Assembly (NCBI GenBank): GCA_021159885.1
Contig: JAGHDO010000033.1
Coordinates: 7,370-71,369, forward strand
DNA: 64,000 bases
Reading direction: 5' to 3'
Source: Synergistota bacterium
Lineage (GTDB): Bacteria; Synergistota; GBS-1
Each line of letters opens with the position of its first letter. The first letter of the stretch is position 1. The position numbers and the translations under genes are program-made. The notes under the pieces are model-generated. The model worked only from the letters and a program-made list of their open reading frames with translations. It searched no databases and was not told the DNA's origin. Shown here in pieces: positions 17,096 to 44,253 of the stretch.

Positions 17096-18110
17096 CTTTT
17101 CCCCTCGCAGAGCCCTTTGAAAGCCCCGTTTTAAGAATTTCCAAGATCTTAGCAGAAGTAAGTTCGCTATCCTCAACGACCACTGCCTGTCCCTCTTGCT
17201 CTAAAAGCTTTGCATTATACCATTGATGATTACCTGTACTGTACGGATATGGAACTAAAATAGCAGGCAAACCAAGGGCTCTCAGCTCAGCTACCGTGCT
17301 CGCGCCAGCTCGAGACAAGACGAGATCAGCAGCTCCATAAGCTTTCTCCATGTGCTCCAGATACGGAAGAATAACGATAGATCTAAAACCCACGCTCTTT
17401 ACTTCCCTCATGACTCTGGAAAAGTCCTGCTTACCAGTTATAAGAAGGATACCCCAATCCCTAAGCGTTCGTTCCCATTCTTCTCTCTTGCTGATAAGAT
17501 CAACGATAACATCATTGATCTTTCTCGCTCCCAAGCTTCCCCCAAATACAAGTAGAATCTTTTTATCCCTATTGAATCCCCATACGCTCTTAAGGCTTCC
17601 AGGGACAACGCTTAAAACGGACCTTCTAACGGGATTTCCGGTAATATGACATTTCTTCCTCATCCATCGAGGAAGAAAATCTAAAGTTTTCTCATAGGAA
17701 AGAGTTATCTTACTCGCAAAAATCGACAAAATTCGCGTTGAGAGCCCAGGCTTCACATCCTGCTCGTGGATCAAGACGGGAATCCCGTAAAATTTCGCAG
17801 ATAAAACCGCAGGAACTTGCCCATACCCTCCCATTCCAATGATCACCCGAGGCTTAAGTCTACTTATTAAAGACATGCTTCTAAAGGTAACCACACATAT
17901 CTTAATAGATCTCCTGAAATTTTCAAGCGTGAATCTTCTATAGAATCCTCTGTATGAAAACTCCTCACATTTATATCCATGATTCCTAATAATTTCTCCC
18001 TCTCCTCTATCGGAGGTCATAAAGAAGACCTCGACGCTCCTCTCCCTCAGGAAATCTGCCAAGGCTATCGCAGGATAAATATGTCCTCCCGTCCCAGCTG
18101 CAGCAATCAA
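17043..18110 (-). CDS. murG: Undecaprenyl-PP-MurNAc-pentapeptide GlcNAc transferase
   Basis: GT28 family with the GTGGHIYPA motif. Confidence 0.85.
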   Translation of the reverse strand: MIAAAGTGGHIYPAIALADFLRERSVEVFFMTSDRGEGEIIRNHGYKCEEFSYRGFYRRFTLENFRRSIKICVVTFRSMSLISRLKPRVIIGMGGYGQVPAVLSAKFYGIPVLIHEQDVKPGLSTRILSIFASKITLSYEKTLDFLPRWMRKKCHITGNPVRRSVLSVVPGSLKSVWGFNRDKKILLVFGGSLGARKINDVIVDLISKREEWERTLRDWGILLITGKQDFSRVMREVKSVGFRSIVILPYLEHMEKAYGAADLVLSRAGASTVAELRALGLPAILVPYPYSTGNHQWYNAKLLEQEGQAVVVEDSELTSAKILEILKTGLSKGSARGKDASERVGKVVLELAQIG

Positions 18111-27611: not shown

Positions 27612-27971
27612 ATATGGGGCGGAAGCAACCCGTAAGCCGAGTTCTGTTTATAGGTAGCCATCTATCTGGGGAGCGGATTGCTCCACTCCTCAAGCGACCT
27701 ACCCGAGGGAGAGGCGAGCAACCCCTTATCCCTCCTATTTGGTCTTGCTCCGGATGGGGTTTGCCAAGCCTATCAGGTCGCCCTGATAGCTGGTGGGCTC
27801 TTACCCCACCTTTTCACCCTTACCCCGCTTCTCAGCGAGGCGGTCCGTTTTCTGTGGCACTTTCCTTGGGGTCACCCCCACTGGGTGTTACCCAGCATCC
27901 CGCTCTGTGGAGCTCGGACTTTCCTCAGGGGAGTGAGGTCTCCCCCGCGGCTACCCAGTTGCTTCCACCCC
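27612..27971 (-). ncRNA. rnpB: RNase P RNA, bacterial type A (M1 RNA)
   Basis: The minus-strand reads GGGGUGGAAGCAACUGGGUAGCC...GAGGAAAGUCCGAGCUCCACAGAGC...AGGGUGAAAAGGUGGGGUAAGAGCCCACCAG...AUCCGGAGCAAGACCAAAUAGG...ACAGAACUCGGCUUACGGGUUGCUUCCGCCCC. P4 and the other universally conserved blocks are present. The P1 helix forms between the two ends, and a U7 run follows the 3' end. Confidence 0.92.
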
Positions 27972-32408: not shown

Positions 32409-33466
32409 GTGGATTCAATCACCTCTTTTATCAACCGCGCAGCGGTAATGACATCCTCTCTCGAAACATCCTTATGAGTAACAAGTCTTATCCTTCTTTT
32501 AGAAACTATGCTAACCTTAACGCCCTTCTCTGCAAGCCTTCTACCAAGCTCATATGCATCCAGGGAACCAGGCAACAACATAAAGTATACCATATTGGTA
32601 CGCACGGGCACTGGTTCCACAATTATGCCTTTTACATCAGATAATTCTCTCGCAAGAAGCTCTGCGTTCTCATGATCCTCCCTCAATCTATCGATCATCT
32701 TAGTAAGAGCCACTATTCCACACGCAGCTATGACTCCAGCCTGTCTCATACCGCCTCCCACGCGCTTTCTCATCTTCCTCGCTCGCTCTATAAAGTTCTT
32801 TCTACCTACTATAACGGAACCTATGGGAGCGGATAACCCCTTGGATAGACAAAACATAAGAGCATCTACCCTCTCTACCATCTTGGAGGGTTTCACCCCA
32901 AGAGCAATACAAGCGTTGAATATTCTGGCACCATCCAAATAAACGGGTATTCCATACTTATCAGCTATATCCGCTACCTCATCTATGTACTCTTTCGATA
33001 AGGCCGTTCCTCCCGCTCTGTTATGGGTGTTCTCCAAGGTTATAAGCGCTGTTCTCGGGAAATGGATATTCTCACCTCTTATGGCATCTTCAAGCTCCTC
33101 CAAGTTAAAAGTTCCATTCTCATCATCTATGGGCATAGCCTGAACTCCCGAAAGAGCAGCCATGGCTCCAACTTCATAATTATAGACATGAGAGTGTCTT
33201 CCAACTATAACCTCATCTCCAGGTTGAGTATAAGTCATAATTGCAACTTGATTAGCCATGGTTCCAGAAACGACAAACAAAGCCGCTTCCTTCGCAAATA
33301 TAGAAGCAGCAAGCTCCTCCAGCTCCCTTACAGTTGGATCCTCTCTATAAACATCATCCCCAACCTCAGCCCTCATCATGGCTTCCCTCATCTCCTCCGT
33401 AGGAACCGTAACCGTATCACTCCTTAAGTCTATGACCTTCACTTTTTCACACCACCCTTCTCCCAC
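32393..33466 (-). CDS. ltaE: Low-specificity L-threonine aldolase (PLP, beta-eliminating lyase family)
   Basis: [34 protein letters not shown] is the canonical N-terminus. Confidence 0.8.
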
Positions 33467-34629
33467 TCAGATGGGTAATAATACTTTTTTCCCTCTATCA
33501 TATATTCCTGATCCACCCAGCCTTCGGGATAATCATGCGGATATTTGTAATCCTCAGAACCCGGGTGAAGATGCTTAGGAACATCCTGTATTTCACCGCT
33601 TTTTATATCCTCAAGTGCTTTCTTTATTCCCATATAAGCTGAGTTACTCTTGGGAGCAAGAGCCACATAGAGCGCCGCTTGAGCTAAGGGAATTTTAGCC
33701 TCCGGCATTCCTATTCTTTCGACCGCTTCCATTGCAGCGGTAGCCACAAGCAAAGCCATCGGATCTGCATTACCCACATCTTCCGAAGCACATATGGCTA
33801 TTCTCCTTGCAATGAAACGTGGATCTTCACCAGATGATATAAGTCTCGCCAGCCAATACAGTGTAGCATCGGGATCGCTACCACGCATGCTTTTTATAAA
33901 GGCAGATATAATCCTATAATGCATATCCGCATCTTTATCATAGACTATATTAACGTCTGACGCAAGCTCAACATGATCCCTCTCTATTAAGCGCTTTTTC
34001 TGCGCTTTTGCTATGTAAAAAGATGCTTCTAATCTCTGCAATAAAGCACGCACGTCACCTCCAGAGAACCTGATAAGAAGATCGATAGCCTCTTCAGAGA
34101 TACCTATGCCTCGCCCACCAAGACCTCGGGGGTCCGTCATCGCTTTGGATATCACCTTCTTAAGATCGCTTGGCGCCAAACGCTCAAAATTTAGCACGAG
34201 AACTCGGGATATTATGGGAGCGTTTATTTCAAAGAAAGGATTATAAACCGTCGTGGCTATCAGAGTTATATCTCCTCTCTCAAGATAAGGCATAAGGATA
34301 TCCTGCTGTAGCTTGTTAAAGTGATATATCTCATCTATAAACAAGATTGCTTTAAGCCCCATTTTACGAGTCGATATAGCCTTACCTATAGCCTCCCGAA
34401 GCTCTTTTATTCCAACAACTGCAGCGTTAAGCTCGAAAAGCTGAGCCTTGATCTCACGAGCAAGCGCCCTCGCAACAGCGGTTTTTCCAACCCCTGGCGG
34501 TCCATAGAAAATCATGGAAGGCAAAAAGCCCTCCGCTATGAAGCTACGGAGGGCTTTAATAACACGCTCCTGCCCCACAATTTCATCTAAGTTTCTTGGT
34601 GCAAGCCTACAGGAAAGAGACCTTTCCAT
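33439..34629 (-). CDS. rarA: Replication-associated recombination protein A (AAA+ ATPase)
   Basis: GPPGVGKT Walker A; MgsA/RarA C-terminal domains. Confidence 0.9.
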
Positions 34630-34654
34630 AAGATATCAACCCCATAAGCCTAAA

Positions 34655-34830
34655 CTAAAAACCCCGCGGTGCCGCATGCCCGAGGTTTTGAACCCAGCCC
34701 CATCATGGTGGGTGCCCCCTCCATCGCTTCCGCGCCGGAACGCTTCCACGATGGAAGCAGAGCTCCCTTTGGTTCTGGTGTTGGCTCAAAACCCTCAAGC
34801 TTTACACACGCACACCGCAGGGATAATCTT
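34655..34830 (-). ncRNA. Unassigned GC-rich structured RNA candidate (~175 nt) in the bioY-rarA intergenic region. Possibly a 6S-like or other sRNA, or a long structured leader/terminator. The strand call is tentative.
   Basis: Sharp GC-rich island between AT-rich flanks. The two ends are complementary over ~35 nt (CCCGCGGUG...GAGGUUUUGAACC with GGCUCAAAACCCUC...CACCGCAGGG). Internal hairpins include UUCCG-CGC-CGGAA and GCUUCC-ACGAU-GGAAGC. The minus-strand version ends in GGCACCGCGGGGUUUUUAGUUU. Confidence 0.4.
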
Positions 34831-34872
34831 CACTTAGAATTTTATCACAAAAACTAAAATATAGCAAGTAAA

Positions 34873-35403
34873 TTAAATCCTATTGCTTTTTACACGTAGC
34901 AGAACGAGAACCTTTTCAGCCACTCCCACAGCTATAATAGCCTTTAGAATGTCTATCCCCACAAAGGGCAAAACCCCTATCTTAAGGGCGCTAAAGAAAT
35001 CACCGTTCAAGAAGAAGCCAAGTCTAAGCCAGCCTAAGAAATATATGATTCCTACACCACTCATGGCTGAAATCAGTTTGCGTCCATACCCCTCGCTTCT
35101 CGCAAAAAGATAGCTTACGAAAAGTGCAGAAAGCGGAAAGCCCCAAAGATACCCCGCCGTAGGACCATAAAGATGAGCTATTCCTCCTTTAAACCCGGCG
35201 AAAACAGGAAAACCAATAGCACCGAGCAGAAGATAAAAGAATTGACTCAAAAAAGCCAACTTAGGAGATAACATCATACCAGATAGAAGAACAAATAGAA
35301 CCTGAAGCGTTATAGGAACCTCACCTATAGGTATAGATATCTGAGCTCCCAAAGCTGTAAGGGCGGTAAAGAGAGCCACATAGGTGATATCTCGCGACCT
35401 CAT
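34873..35403 (-). CDS. bioY: Biotin transporter BioY (ECF S component)
   Basis: 176 aa, 5-6 TM helices, BioY-like throughout. Confidence 0.85.
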   Translation of the reverse strand: MRSRDITYVALFTALTALGAQISIPIGEVPITLQVLFVLLSGMMLSPKLAFLSQFFYLLLGAIGFPVFAGFKGGIAHLYGPTAGYLWGFPLSALFVSYLFARSEGYGRKLISAMSGVGIIYFLGWLRLGFFLNGDFFSALKIGVLPFVGIDILKAIIAVGVAEKVLVLLRVKSNRI

Positions 35404-44077: not shown

Positions 44078-44096
44078 CCTAAAAGCACCTCATAAT

Positions 44097-44151
44097 AGCA
44101 GGTGTTATTAACTGCTCCCAAATTATAACAGACCACCCCCCTTTTTTCAAG
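44097..44151 (-). promoter_or_regulatory. fapR promoter (-35 TTGAAA, 16-17-nt spacer, -10 TATAAT), followed downstream by a 20-bp imperfect palindrome AGCAGGTGTTATTAACTGCT (44097-44116) that is a candidate autoregulatory operator
   Basis: The minus-strand reads cTTGAAAaaaggggggtggtctgTTATAATttgggAGCAGttaataacacCTGCTattatgaggtg. Confidence 0.45.
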
Positions 44152-44179
44152 CTGCTCGTGCATTTGGGACTTAACTTAA

Positions 44180-44223
44180 GAAACCTTTTCTGATATAATC
44201 AGGTTATAAAGGTATACTAAGTA
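44180..44223 (+). promoter_or_regulatory. Promoter region of the TRAP/ABC/aminotransferase operon: extended -10 TGATATAAT, then a perfect 7-1-7 palindrome GTATACTAAGTATAC (part of the tandem GTATACTAA GTATACTAA) as a candidate operator
   Basis: Reads ttctgaTATAATcaggttataaagGTATACTAAGTATACTAAAtct, about 30 nt upstream of the AGGAGGTG RBS of the TAXI gene. Confidence 0.4.
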
Positions 44224-44253
44224 TACTAAATCTAACCAGGAGGTGGTCGCGGT

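What the first reader, a model, noticed from the sequence alone, without database searches (positions are those of the whole stretch)
34655..34830. Unassigned ~175-nt GC-rich structured RNA candidate between bioY and rarA
This is the only sizeable non-coding gap in 44 kb of tightly packed genes, apart from rnpB. Like rnpB, it stands out as a GC-rich island against AT-rich flanks, which is a hallmark of RNA genes in low-GC thermophiles.
- The 5' and 3' ends are complementary over ~35 nt, with bulges, forming a long closing stem.
- A less-paired middle region and short apical hairpins (UUCCG-CGC-CGGAA and GCUUCC-ACGAU-GGAAGC) sit between the ends.
- On the minus strand, which is co-directional with bioY and rarA, the molecule ends with a GC stem plus UUUUU.
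- The closing stem, central bubble and terminal stem resemble 6S RNA.
- A GGAAGCAG string recalls SRP RNA helix 8, but no GNRA tetraloop is present.
- No reading frame is credible, and the six-frame ORFs here are GC-driven artefacts.

It could be an sRNA gene or a structured leader or attenuator controlling rarA.
Basis: seen in the sequence. Interest (0 to 1): 0.65.

Follow-up and report, generated by a model that had tools for sequence, protein, structure and literature searches.

The report
Ordinary 6S RNA gene (ssrS)

Summary
Rfam's curated 6S/SsrS model (RF00013) matches window 34657-34826 on the minus strand. The match is end to end (model 1-187/187), scores 78 bits against a gathering score of 46.4, and has E about 1e-13. 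No other family matches the region, even at E<=1. The minus strand folds into the canonical rod: closing stem, internal helix, central bubble and terminal stem (-86.7 kcal/mol, z=-5.0). The two nearest genomes, both unclassified MAGs, carry the same RNA at the same place. They also share a conserved upstream promoter (TTGCWA, 17 nt, TGnTAAAAT). Three compensatory pair changes fall in the terminal stem. Across 19 homologues from several phyla, 91% of cells pair (33-51% in slid controls) and 41 of 51 pairs show compensatory changes. SRP RNA, tmRNA, a protein-coding frame and a dedicated rarA leader are all rejected. One side observation is mildly interesting. A 6S RNA lies upstream of rarA on the same strand in 23 of 80 rarA loci, from at least six other named lineages. 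Here the spacer is only 27 nt, too short for a separate rarA promoter, so rarA may be transcribed by read-through, as ygfA is behind ssrS in E. coli. Interest is low.

The parts
34657..34826 (-). 6S RNA (ssrS) gene body as matched by Rfam RF00013. The likely primary transcript runs from about 34833-34830 to about 34657, roughly 175 nt.
   Evidence: 78 bits against a gathering score of 46.4, E 1e-13 to 9e-16, model 1-187/187; an own model built from this lineage finds only this one copy in the window.
34839..34867 (-). Predicted sigma-70-type promoter of the 6S RNA. The -35 box is TTGCTA (34867-34862), followed by a 17-nt spacer, an extended-10 TG (34847-34846) and the -10 box TAAAAT (34844-34839). 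It starts 5 nt after the bioY stop codon.
   Evidence: One search finds it as the only promoter-like site in 34400-35100 (expected 0.4). One search shows TTTACTTGC...TGTGnTAAAAT conserved in both related MAG loci, while the sequence between the boxes and around them varies.
34804..34822 (-). 5' strand of the closing stem. It pairs with 34662-34679 (18 pairs and one bulged G).
   Evidence: 100% of cells paired in 3 sequences; compensatory changes across phyla, for example at 34816/34668 and 34815/34669.
34662..34679 (-). 3' strand of the closing stem.
34783..34794 (-). 5' strand of the inner helix next to the central bubble (GGGUUUUGAGCC). It pairs with 34683-34694. By analogy with other 6S RNAs it is the predicted template for pRNA extension.
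   Evidence: the bubble-flanking C-G pairs 34784/34693 and 34783/34694 are invariant in 19 of 19 sequences. The template role is inferred.
34683..34694 (-). 3' strand of the inner helix (GGUUCAAAACCU).
34768..34782 (-). 5' strand of the central bubble (AACACCAGAACCAAA). The predicted pRNA start templates at C34780, giving 5'-GUUGGCUCAAAACC.
   Evidence: The Rfam alignment places this stretch in the unpaired bubble columns. It is invariant except for one base in the 3 lineage sequences. The start site is inferred from B. subtilis and E. coli 6S RNAs and from the 'GG at pRNA positions 4/5' rule in PMC8414754.
34695..34709 (-). 3' strand of the central bubble (ACCAUGAUGGGGCUG).
   Evidence: The weak CAG/CUG and CCA/UGG pairings predicted across the bubble never vary, so they are untested.
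34710..34767 (-). Terminal (apical) stem-loop, with its loop at 34739-34736.
   Evidence: three compensatory changes (34752/34723, 34750/34725, 34749/34726) support a single extended stem; shorter than the Rfam consensus at the apex.
34657..34661 (-). U5 tract directly after the closing stem. It is the likely 3' end, or a leaky termination point, 27 nt before the rarA start codon.
   Evidence: In one search, 15 of the 19 rarA-linked 6S RNAs show a run of four or more T at the end of the match. The termination role is inferred.
33439..34629 (-). rarA/mgsA (AAA+ ATPase), the co-directional downstream neighbour. It is context, and possibly co-transcribed.
   Evidence: MgsA_C 5.5e-57, plus AAA and AAA_assoc_2; no promoter-like site between the 6S promoter and rarA.

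Best explanation
This is the organism's 6S RNA gene (ssrS). It is transcribed from its own sigma-70-type promoter on the minus strand, giving a stable RNA of about 175 nt.

The RNA folds into a rod with three parts: a long closing stem, a largely open central bubble flanked by conserved G-C pairs, and a terminal stem-loop. Established work on E. coli, B. subtilis and Aquifex aeolicus 6S RNAs shows that this shape mimics an open promoter. The RNA occupies the active-site cleft of RNA polymerase carrying the housekeeping sigma factor and holds the enzyme back when growth slows. When nucleotides return, the polymerase copies the 5' strand of the bubble into a short product RNA (pRNA). I predict 5'-GUUGGCUCAAAACC here. 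That pRNA unzips the inner helix, changes the RNA's shape and releases the enzyme.

Shown here:
- family membership
- the fold
- covariation
- promoter conservation
- the single copy in the window

Inferred from the family:
- polymerase binding
- the pRNA start site
- the release step

Also inferred: the closing stem plus U5 ends most transcripts, while some read through the 27-nt spacer into rarA.
For: - Rfam RF00013 gives a full-length match at 78 bits against a gathering score of 46.4, the only family matching at E<=1.
- The strongly conserved residues of the family consensus are present: CCCUGCGGUGU..CG, UGAGCC, GGGAGC, GCACCCACC, GGUUCAA and CGGCACCGCGGGG.
- The minus-strand fold is -86.7 kcal/mol with z=-5.0.
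- The same RNA sits at the same position in the two closest genomes, with 57 consensus pairs, 170 of 171 cells paired and 3 compensatory changes.
- On a 19-sequence cross-phylum alignment, 91.4% of cells pair against 33-51% in slid controls. 41 of 51 pairs have compensatory changes against 12-15 in the controls.
- The promoter is conserved.
- Proximity of 6S RNA to rarA is a published hallmark of 6S loci in lactic acid bacteria and of B. subtilis 6S-1 (PMC8414754).
- The mechanism is summarised in PMC4227106.
Against: - There are no expression or binding data for this organism.
- Covariation within the lineage rests on only 3 sequences and is weak on its own (19 of 500 shuffles reach the observed value).
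- The cross-phylum alignment was fitted to the structure, which inflates the paired fraction.
- The apex of the terminal stem is shorter than the Rfam consensus, and several consensus pairs there are absent.
- Modelling of the pRNA-induced rearrangement gave no hairpin conserved across the three sequences.
Confidence: 0.96

Rival explanations
1. It is a cis-acting leader or attenuator of rarA. The structure and U-tract would control how much transcription reaches rarA, with no role as a free RNA.
For: Only 27 nt separate the U-tract from the rarA start codon, and no other promoter-like site precedes rarA. The same 6S-then-rarA order occurs in 23 of 80 loci.
Against: The element is a full-length match to a trans-acting RNA family. 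In five loci other genes (ThiF/TcdA-like, HAD hydrolase, RseC) lie between the 6S RNA and rarA, so the RNA is not bound to the rarA 5' end. In lactic acid bacteria the 6S RNA lies downstream of rarA (PMC8414754). No alternative terminator/antiterminator pairing is evident. Read-through into rarA can coexist with 6S function, so it is an addition rather than a rival.
Confidence: 0.02
2. It is just a long terminator structure for the upstream tyrS-bioY transcript.
For: No compact terminator lies between the bioY stop codon (34873-34875) and the RNA. bioY transcripts therefore probably end at or beyond the closing stem and U5.
Against: A terminator would not need 170 nt. It would not carry its own conserved promoter, match the 6S model end to end, or keep a conserved unpaired bubble sequence.
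Confidence: 0.01
3. It is a different RNA (SRP RNA or tmRNA) or a small protein-coding gene on the plus strand (ORFs 34514-34837 and 34669-34857).
Against: No SRP, tmRNA or other family matches at E<=1. The ORFs have no Pfam match at E<=1. The 107-codon ORF overlaps the rarA coding region on the opposite strand. Substitutions between homologues are paired across helices rather than falling on codon third positions.
Confidence: 0.01

Closest known systems
6S / SsrS RNA, Rfam RF00013 (E. coli SsrS, B. subtilis 6S-1/BsrA, Aquifex aeolicus 6S RNA)
   Same: - Full-length match to the family model above the curated threshold
- Similar size
- Rod-like layout with closing stem, central bubble and terminal stem
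- The family's strongly conserved sequence blocks around the bubble
- A UUUUGAGCCAAC template region close to B. subtilis 6S-1 (UUUUGACCGAAC, from my own knowledge of its pRNA 5'-GUUCGGUCAAAACU)
- GC-rich against an AT-rich genome, as reported for A. aeolicus non-coding RNAs (PMC4227106)
   Different: - The apical part of the terminal stem is shorter than the consensus.
- The closing stem runs straight into a U5 tract with no separate terminator hairpin.
- The gene sits 27 nt upstream of rarA, not upstream of ygfA as in E. coli.
- It comes from a sparsely sampled lineage: the best rarA relatives are 74-76% identical and come from two unclassified MAGs.
The 6S-rarA neighbourhood of lactic acid bacteria and B. 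subtilis 6S-1 (Cataldo et al. 2021, PMC8414754)
   Same: The 6S RNA gene is immediately adjacent to rarA.
   Different: In lactic acid bacteria rarA lies upstream of the 6S RNA, and both are described as monocistronic. In B. subtilis rarA is in the opposite direction. Here, and in 22 other loci from Nitrospirota, Omnitrophota, Planctomycetota, Synergistota, Armatimonadota and Acholeplasmataceae, the 6S RNA lies upstream of rarA on the same strand.
The E. coli ssrS-ygfA dicistronic unit (established knowledge, not tested here)
   Same: A 6S RNA gene is followed closely by a co-directional protein gene that has no evident promoter of its own. This suggests co-transcription and release of the 6S RNA by termination or processing.
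   Different: The downstream gene is rarA rather than 5-formyltetrahydrofolate cyclo-ligase. Co-transcription here is inferred only from the spacing and the lack of a promoter-like site.

Membership tests
6S / SsrS RNA (RF00013) | Covariance-model score at or above the curated gathering score, covering the whole model | tested here: met
   78.0 bits against 46.4, model positions 1-187 of 187, E 1.1e-13 over the 64-kb window
6S / SsrS RNA (RF00013) | Rod-shaped secondary structure: long closing stem, large central bubble, terminal stem-loop; about 150-200 nt | tested here: met
   170-nt match. The minimum-energy fold and the consensus fold both give this layout, with z=-5.0 against shuffles.
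6S / SsrS RNA (RF00013) | Helices supported by compensatory base changes among homologues | tested here: met
   Cross-phylum: 41 of 51 pairs with compensatory change and 91.4% paired, against 12-15 pairs and 33-51% in slid controls (the alignment was fitted to the model). Within the lineage there are only 3 compensatory pairs, which is weak on its own.
6S / SsrS RNA (RF00013) | Conserved G-C pairs and sequence blocks flanking the central bubble | tested here: met
   UGAGCC/GGUUCAA and GGGAGC/GCACCCACC match the strongly conserved consensus residues. C-G pairs 34784/34693 and 34783/34694 are invariant in 19 of 19 sequences.
6S / SsrS RNA (RF00013) | Independent transcription as a discrete, abundant small RNA | not testable with these tools
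   Only a predicted promoter, conserved in 3 genomes, and a U-tract at the 3' end. No expression data.
6S / SsrS RNA (RF00013) | Binds RNA polymerase holoenzyme with the primary sigma factor and templates pRNA synthesis | not testable with these tools
   Inferred from family membership. The pRNA 5'-GUUGGCUCAAAACC is a prediction by analogy.
6S / SsrS RNA (RF00013) | pRNA-induced refolding (central bubble collapse helix or 3' hairpin) that releases the polymerase | tested here: inconclusive
   Constrained folding with the 14-nt pRNA site blocked gave different rearrangements in the three sequences at 37 and 70 C.
Bacterial SRP RNA (RF00169 / RF01854) and tmRNA | Match to the family covariance model | tested here: not met
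   No match at E<=1 in 34500-35000 on either strand, and none at gathering score anywhere in the window.
Cis-regulatory leader or attenuator of rarA | Always part of the 5' untranslated region of the regulated gene, with no existence apart from it | tested here: not met
   Homologous RNAs are separated from rarA by other genes in 5 of 19 loci. In lactic acid bacteria they lie downstream of rarA.

The most novel reading that the evidence does not exclude
The 6S RNA and rarA form an ancient, widely conserved co-directional unit, seen in 23 of 80 rarA loci from at least six other named lineages besides this one. In this organism rarA would have no promoter of its own. It would be expressed only by read-through of the 6S closing stem and U5 tract. 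The amount of the replication-fork rescue ATPase RarA would then be tied to 6S promoter activity and to how efficiently the 6S RNA is terminated or processed. This would be a functional link between global transcription control and replication restart, going beyond the proximity already noted in Firmicutes.
Probability: 0.3. Interest if true: 0.35.

Novelty: already known. Interest (0 to 1): 0.1.

Why it matters
It matters little beyond correct annotation. The region should be labelled ssrS (6S RNA) and the overlapping ORFs discarded.

It does show that a GC-rich island in an AT-rich, probably thermophilic genome is a reliable cue for structured RNA genes. That cue picked out both 6S RNA and RNase P RNA in this window.

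The one point of wider interest is the synteny. The 6S-rarA neighbourhood described for lactic acid bacteria extends, in a co-directional 6S-then-rarA form, to many distant phyla. It can help find divergent 6S RNAs, and it hints at co-expression of RarA with 6S RNA.

Tried and rejected
- **Other RNA families.** A permissive Rfam scan (E<=1) of 34500-35000 on both strands returned only 6S RNA.
- **Plus-strand RNA.** It folds less well (z=-3.1 against -5.0) and has no family match.
- **Protein-coding reading.** The plus-strand ORFs have no Pfam match at E<=1.
- **Finding the source genome.** No gene with exactly this RarA product is on record. The best genome matches are two unclassified MAGs at 74-76% identity. 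'bacterium GBS-1' has no taxonomic placement, and no paper cites its accession. The organism stays unidentified.
- **More homologues for covariation.** A metagenome scan with a 20-mer gave 20 loci. Only 3 carry the RNA, and all three are identical to L001 or L002.
- **MAFFT alignment of distant 6S RNAs (A3).** It was out of register in the helices, so I did not use it for pair counts. I used a model-guided alignment instead.
- **pRNA-induced refolding.** Modelling gave no conserved collapse hairpin.
- **Barrick et al. 2005 (PMC1370762).** It is not held in the library, so I could not check its statements on synteny.
- **Apparent gaps at 17177-18106.** They turned out to be a 355-codon ORF with no RNA family match.

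Full report
**1. Observation**

The region between 34630 and 34872 has no credible coding frame. It lies between two minus-strand genes. Downstream is rarA/mgsA (33439-34629; MgsA_C 5.5e-57, AAA, AAA_assoc_2). Upstream is bioY (34873-35403; BioY 7.2e-38). Tyrosyl-tRNA synthetase lies further upstream.

The segment 34657-34826 is 59% GC in a window that averages 44%. Among the intergenic gaps of my crude ORF map, plus the RNase P RNA region, only this one and RNase P reach 65% GC or more in any 100-nt stretch.

The claim that this is the only sizeable gap is roughly right. Most other gaps in my crude ORF map hold ORFs. The apparent gap at 17177-18106, for example, is a 355-codon ORF. One AT-rich 176-nt gap remains at 44078-44253.

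The minus strand folds at -86.7 kcal/mol with z=-5.0, and none of 200 dinucleotide-preserving shuffles does as well. The plus strand is weaker, with z=-3.1. The structure is therefore real, strand-specific and beyond chance.

**2. What it is**

A scan of the whole window against Rfam 15 at curated thresholds gives two hits. One is RNase P RNA at 27617-27966 (minus). The other is 6S/SsrS RNA (RF00013) at 34657-34826 (minus). The 6S hit scores 78 bits against a gathering score of 46.4, has E 1.1e-13, and covers model positions 1-187 of 187.

A permissive scan of 34500-35000 at E<=1 returns only this family. That removes SRP RNA and tmRNA.

The alignment to the consensus shows the family's strongly conserved blocks:
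- CCCUGCGGUGU..CG at the 5' end
- UGAGCC before the bubble
- GGGAGC and GCACCCACC around the terminal stem
- GGUUCAA after the bubble
- CGGCACCGCGGGG at the 3' end

The apex of the terminal stem is shorter than the consensus.

**3. Anatomy on the minus strand**

| Part | Coordinates |
|---|---|
| Closing stem (18 pairs, one bulge) | 34822-34804 with 34679-34662 |
| Internal loop | 34803-34795 and 34682-34680 |
| Inner helix (12 pairs) | 34794-34783 with 34694-34683 |
| Central bubble, 5' strand (AACACCAGAACCAAA) | 34782-34768 |
| Central bubble, 3' strand (ACCAUGAUGGGGCUG) | 34709-34695 |
| Terminal stem-loop | 34767-34710 |
| U5 tract | 34661-34657 |

The compensatory changes pair across them, so a single extended stem is the supported reading.

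**4. Relatives**

The window's own genome is not in the searchable collections. The closest RarA proteins are only 74-76% identical. They come from two unclassified MAGs: L001 (DJKA70_ANT-KO_bin.39) and L002 (bacterium GBS-1). The next best are about 50% identical and come from Nitrospirota and other phyla.

Both MAGs have the same gene order (tyrS, bioY, 6S, rarA) and a full-length Rfam 6S hit directly upstream of rarA, at 73.6 and 92.4 bits. A metagenome scan added only identical copies of those two.

In the three-way alignment the RNA body is 93% identical. The consensus structure has 57 pairs, and 170 of 171 cells pair. Three pairs in the terminal stem changed on both sides. With three sequences this is weak statistically. 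19 of 500 shuffles reach the observed value, although slid controls fall to 38-53% paired.

To widen the test I built a covariance model from this lineage's fold, leaving the bubble unpaired. I searched all 80 rarA loci with it. It recovered 6S RNAs in 18 loci plus the window.

On the resulting alignment of 19 forward-strand sequences:
- 91.4% of cells pair, against 33-51% when partners are slid by 1-3 columns.
- 41 of 51 pairs show a change on both sides, against 12-15 in the slid controls.
- The C-G pairs next to the bubble are invariant.

The alignment was fitted to the structure, which inflates the paired fraction. The gap between it and the slid controls is still large.

**5. Transcription signals**

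The only promoter-like site in 34400-35100 lies on the minus strand just upstream of the RNA. It reads TTGCTA (34867-34862), then 17 nt, then TG and TAAAAT (34844-34839). The motif TTTACTTGC...TGTGnTAAAAT is conserved in L001 and L002 while neighbouring bases vary. This places the start near 34833-34830.

The promoter begins 5 nt after the bioY stop codon. No compact terminator precedes it, so tyrS-bioY transcripts probably also run into the RNA (inference).

The RNA ends in a U-tract directly after the closing stem. Only 27 nt, containing a GGGG Shine-Dalgarno-like run, separate it from the rarA ATG. No promoter-like site lies inside the RNA.

I infer that the closing stem plus U5 ends most transcripts and that rarA is reached by read-through. 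This resembles ygfA behind ssrS in E. coli, which is established knowledge and was not tested here.

**6. Mechanism**

This part rests on the family rather than on anything shown here. 6S RNA mimics an open promoter and binds RNA polymerase holoenzyme carrying the primary sigma factor. It blocks transcription in stationary phase. On nutrient resupply the polymerase synthesises short pRNAs on the 6S RNA, which refold it and release the enzyme (summarised in PMC4227106, and PMC8414754).

The template region here is UUUUGAGCCAAC. It resembles that of B. subtilis 6S-1. I predict initiation opposite C34780, giving 5'-GUUGGCUCAAAACC. Its GG at positions 4/5 fits the rule noted in PMC8414754.

Constrained folding with this site blocked did not give a refolded hairpin shared by the three sequences. 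The release step remains untested.

**7. Rivals**

- **Dedicated rarA leader.** This is contradicted by the family match. It is also contradicted by loci where other genes lie between the 6S RNA and rarA: ThiF/TcdA-like, HAD hydrolase and RseC.
- **Plain bioY terminator.** This does not explain the conserved promoter or the conserved bubble sequence.
- **Plus-strand ORFs.** They have no Pfam match, and one overlaps rarA on the opposite strand.

**8. Side observation**

A 6S RNA lies upstream of rarA on the same strand in 19 of the 60 loci scanned with Rfam. Adding hits from my own model brings the count to 23 of 80. I saw none downstream of rarA. The only minus-strand matches were weak antisense echoes of the L001 and L002 6S genes from my own model.

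The loci come from Nitrospirota/Thermodesulfovibrionia, Omnitrophota, Planctomycetota, Synergistota, Armatimonadota and Acholeplasmataceae. In 14 of the 19 Rfam-positive loci no gene intervenes, with gaps of 23-365 nt. In one search, 15 of the 19 RNAs show a run of four or more T at the end of the match.

Proximity of 6S RNA to rarA is already published for lactic acid bacteria and B. subtilis, but with rarA upstream or divergent (PMC8414754). The co-directional form across distant phyla is an extension of that, not a new kind of thing.

**9. Verdict**

This is a textbook 6S RNA gene that any Rfam-based annotation would label. Novelty: already known. Interest: low.

Noticed in passing
window 27617-27966 (minus): Bacterial RNase P RNA class A (RF00010), 338.5 bits, full length. 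It is the only other Rfam hit in the window and, like the 6S RNA, is a GC-rich island (60% GC).
   Followed up: partly
L001-L080 (rarA loci); window 33439-34826: A 6S RNA lies upstream of rarA on the same strand in 23 of 80 rarA loci, from Nitrospirota, Omnitrophota, Planctomycetota, Synergistota, Armatimonadota, Acholeplasmataceae and this lineage. The literature I found describes 6S-rarA proximity only for Firmicutes, and in a different orientation (PMC8414754).
   Followed up: partly
L014 2226-2903; L008 1895-2923; L060 2294-2692: Where a gene sits between the 6S RNA and rarA it differs by lineage: a ThiF/TcdA-like protein in an Acholeplasmataceae MAG, a HAD-family hydrolase in Acetomicrobium, and RseC/MucC in an unclassified MAG. 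As I recall, the ThiF/TcdA case echoes the B. subtilis yrvM-bsrA neighbourhood.
   Followed up: partly
window 34657-34661 and the 3' ends of the 6S RNAs in L002, L017, L008, L026, L047, L053, L054, L057, L033, L031: Many rarA-linked 6S RNAs end with the closing stem running straight into a run of 4-9 U, with no separate terminator hairpin. The long-range closing helix may itself act as the terminator stem.
   Followed up: no
window 44078-44253: An AT-rich (39% GC) 176-nt stretch with no ORF of 30 codons or more and no Rfam hit at gathering score. It is probably a promoter or divergent regulatory region. I did not examine it.
   Followed up: no
window 34516-34534 (minus), inside rarA: A terminator-like hairpin plus T-run inside the rarA coding sequence. 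The number found (2) is close to the shuffle expectation (1.0), so it is probably chance.
   Followed up: no
whole window: The source genome appears to be absent from the searchable collections. There is no exact RarA on record, and the best genome hits are two unclassified MAGs at 74-76% identity, one named after 'GBS'. The lineage is sparsely sampled and I could not name the organism.
   Followed up: partly
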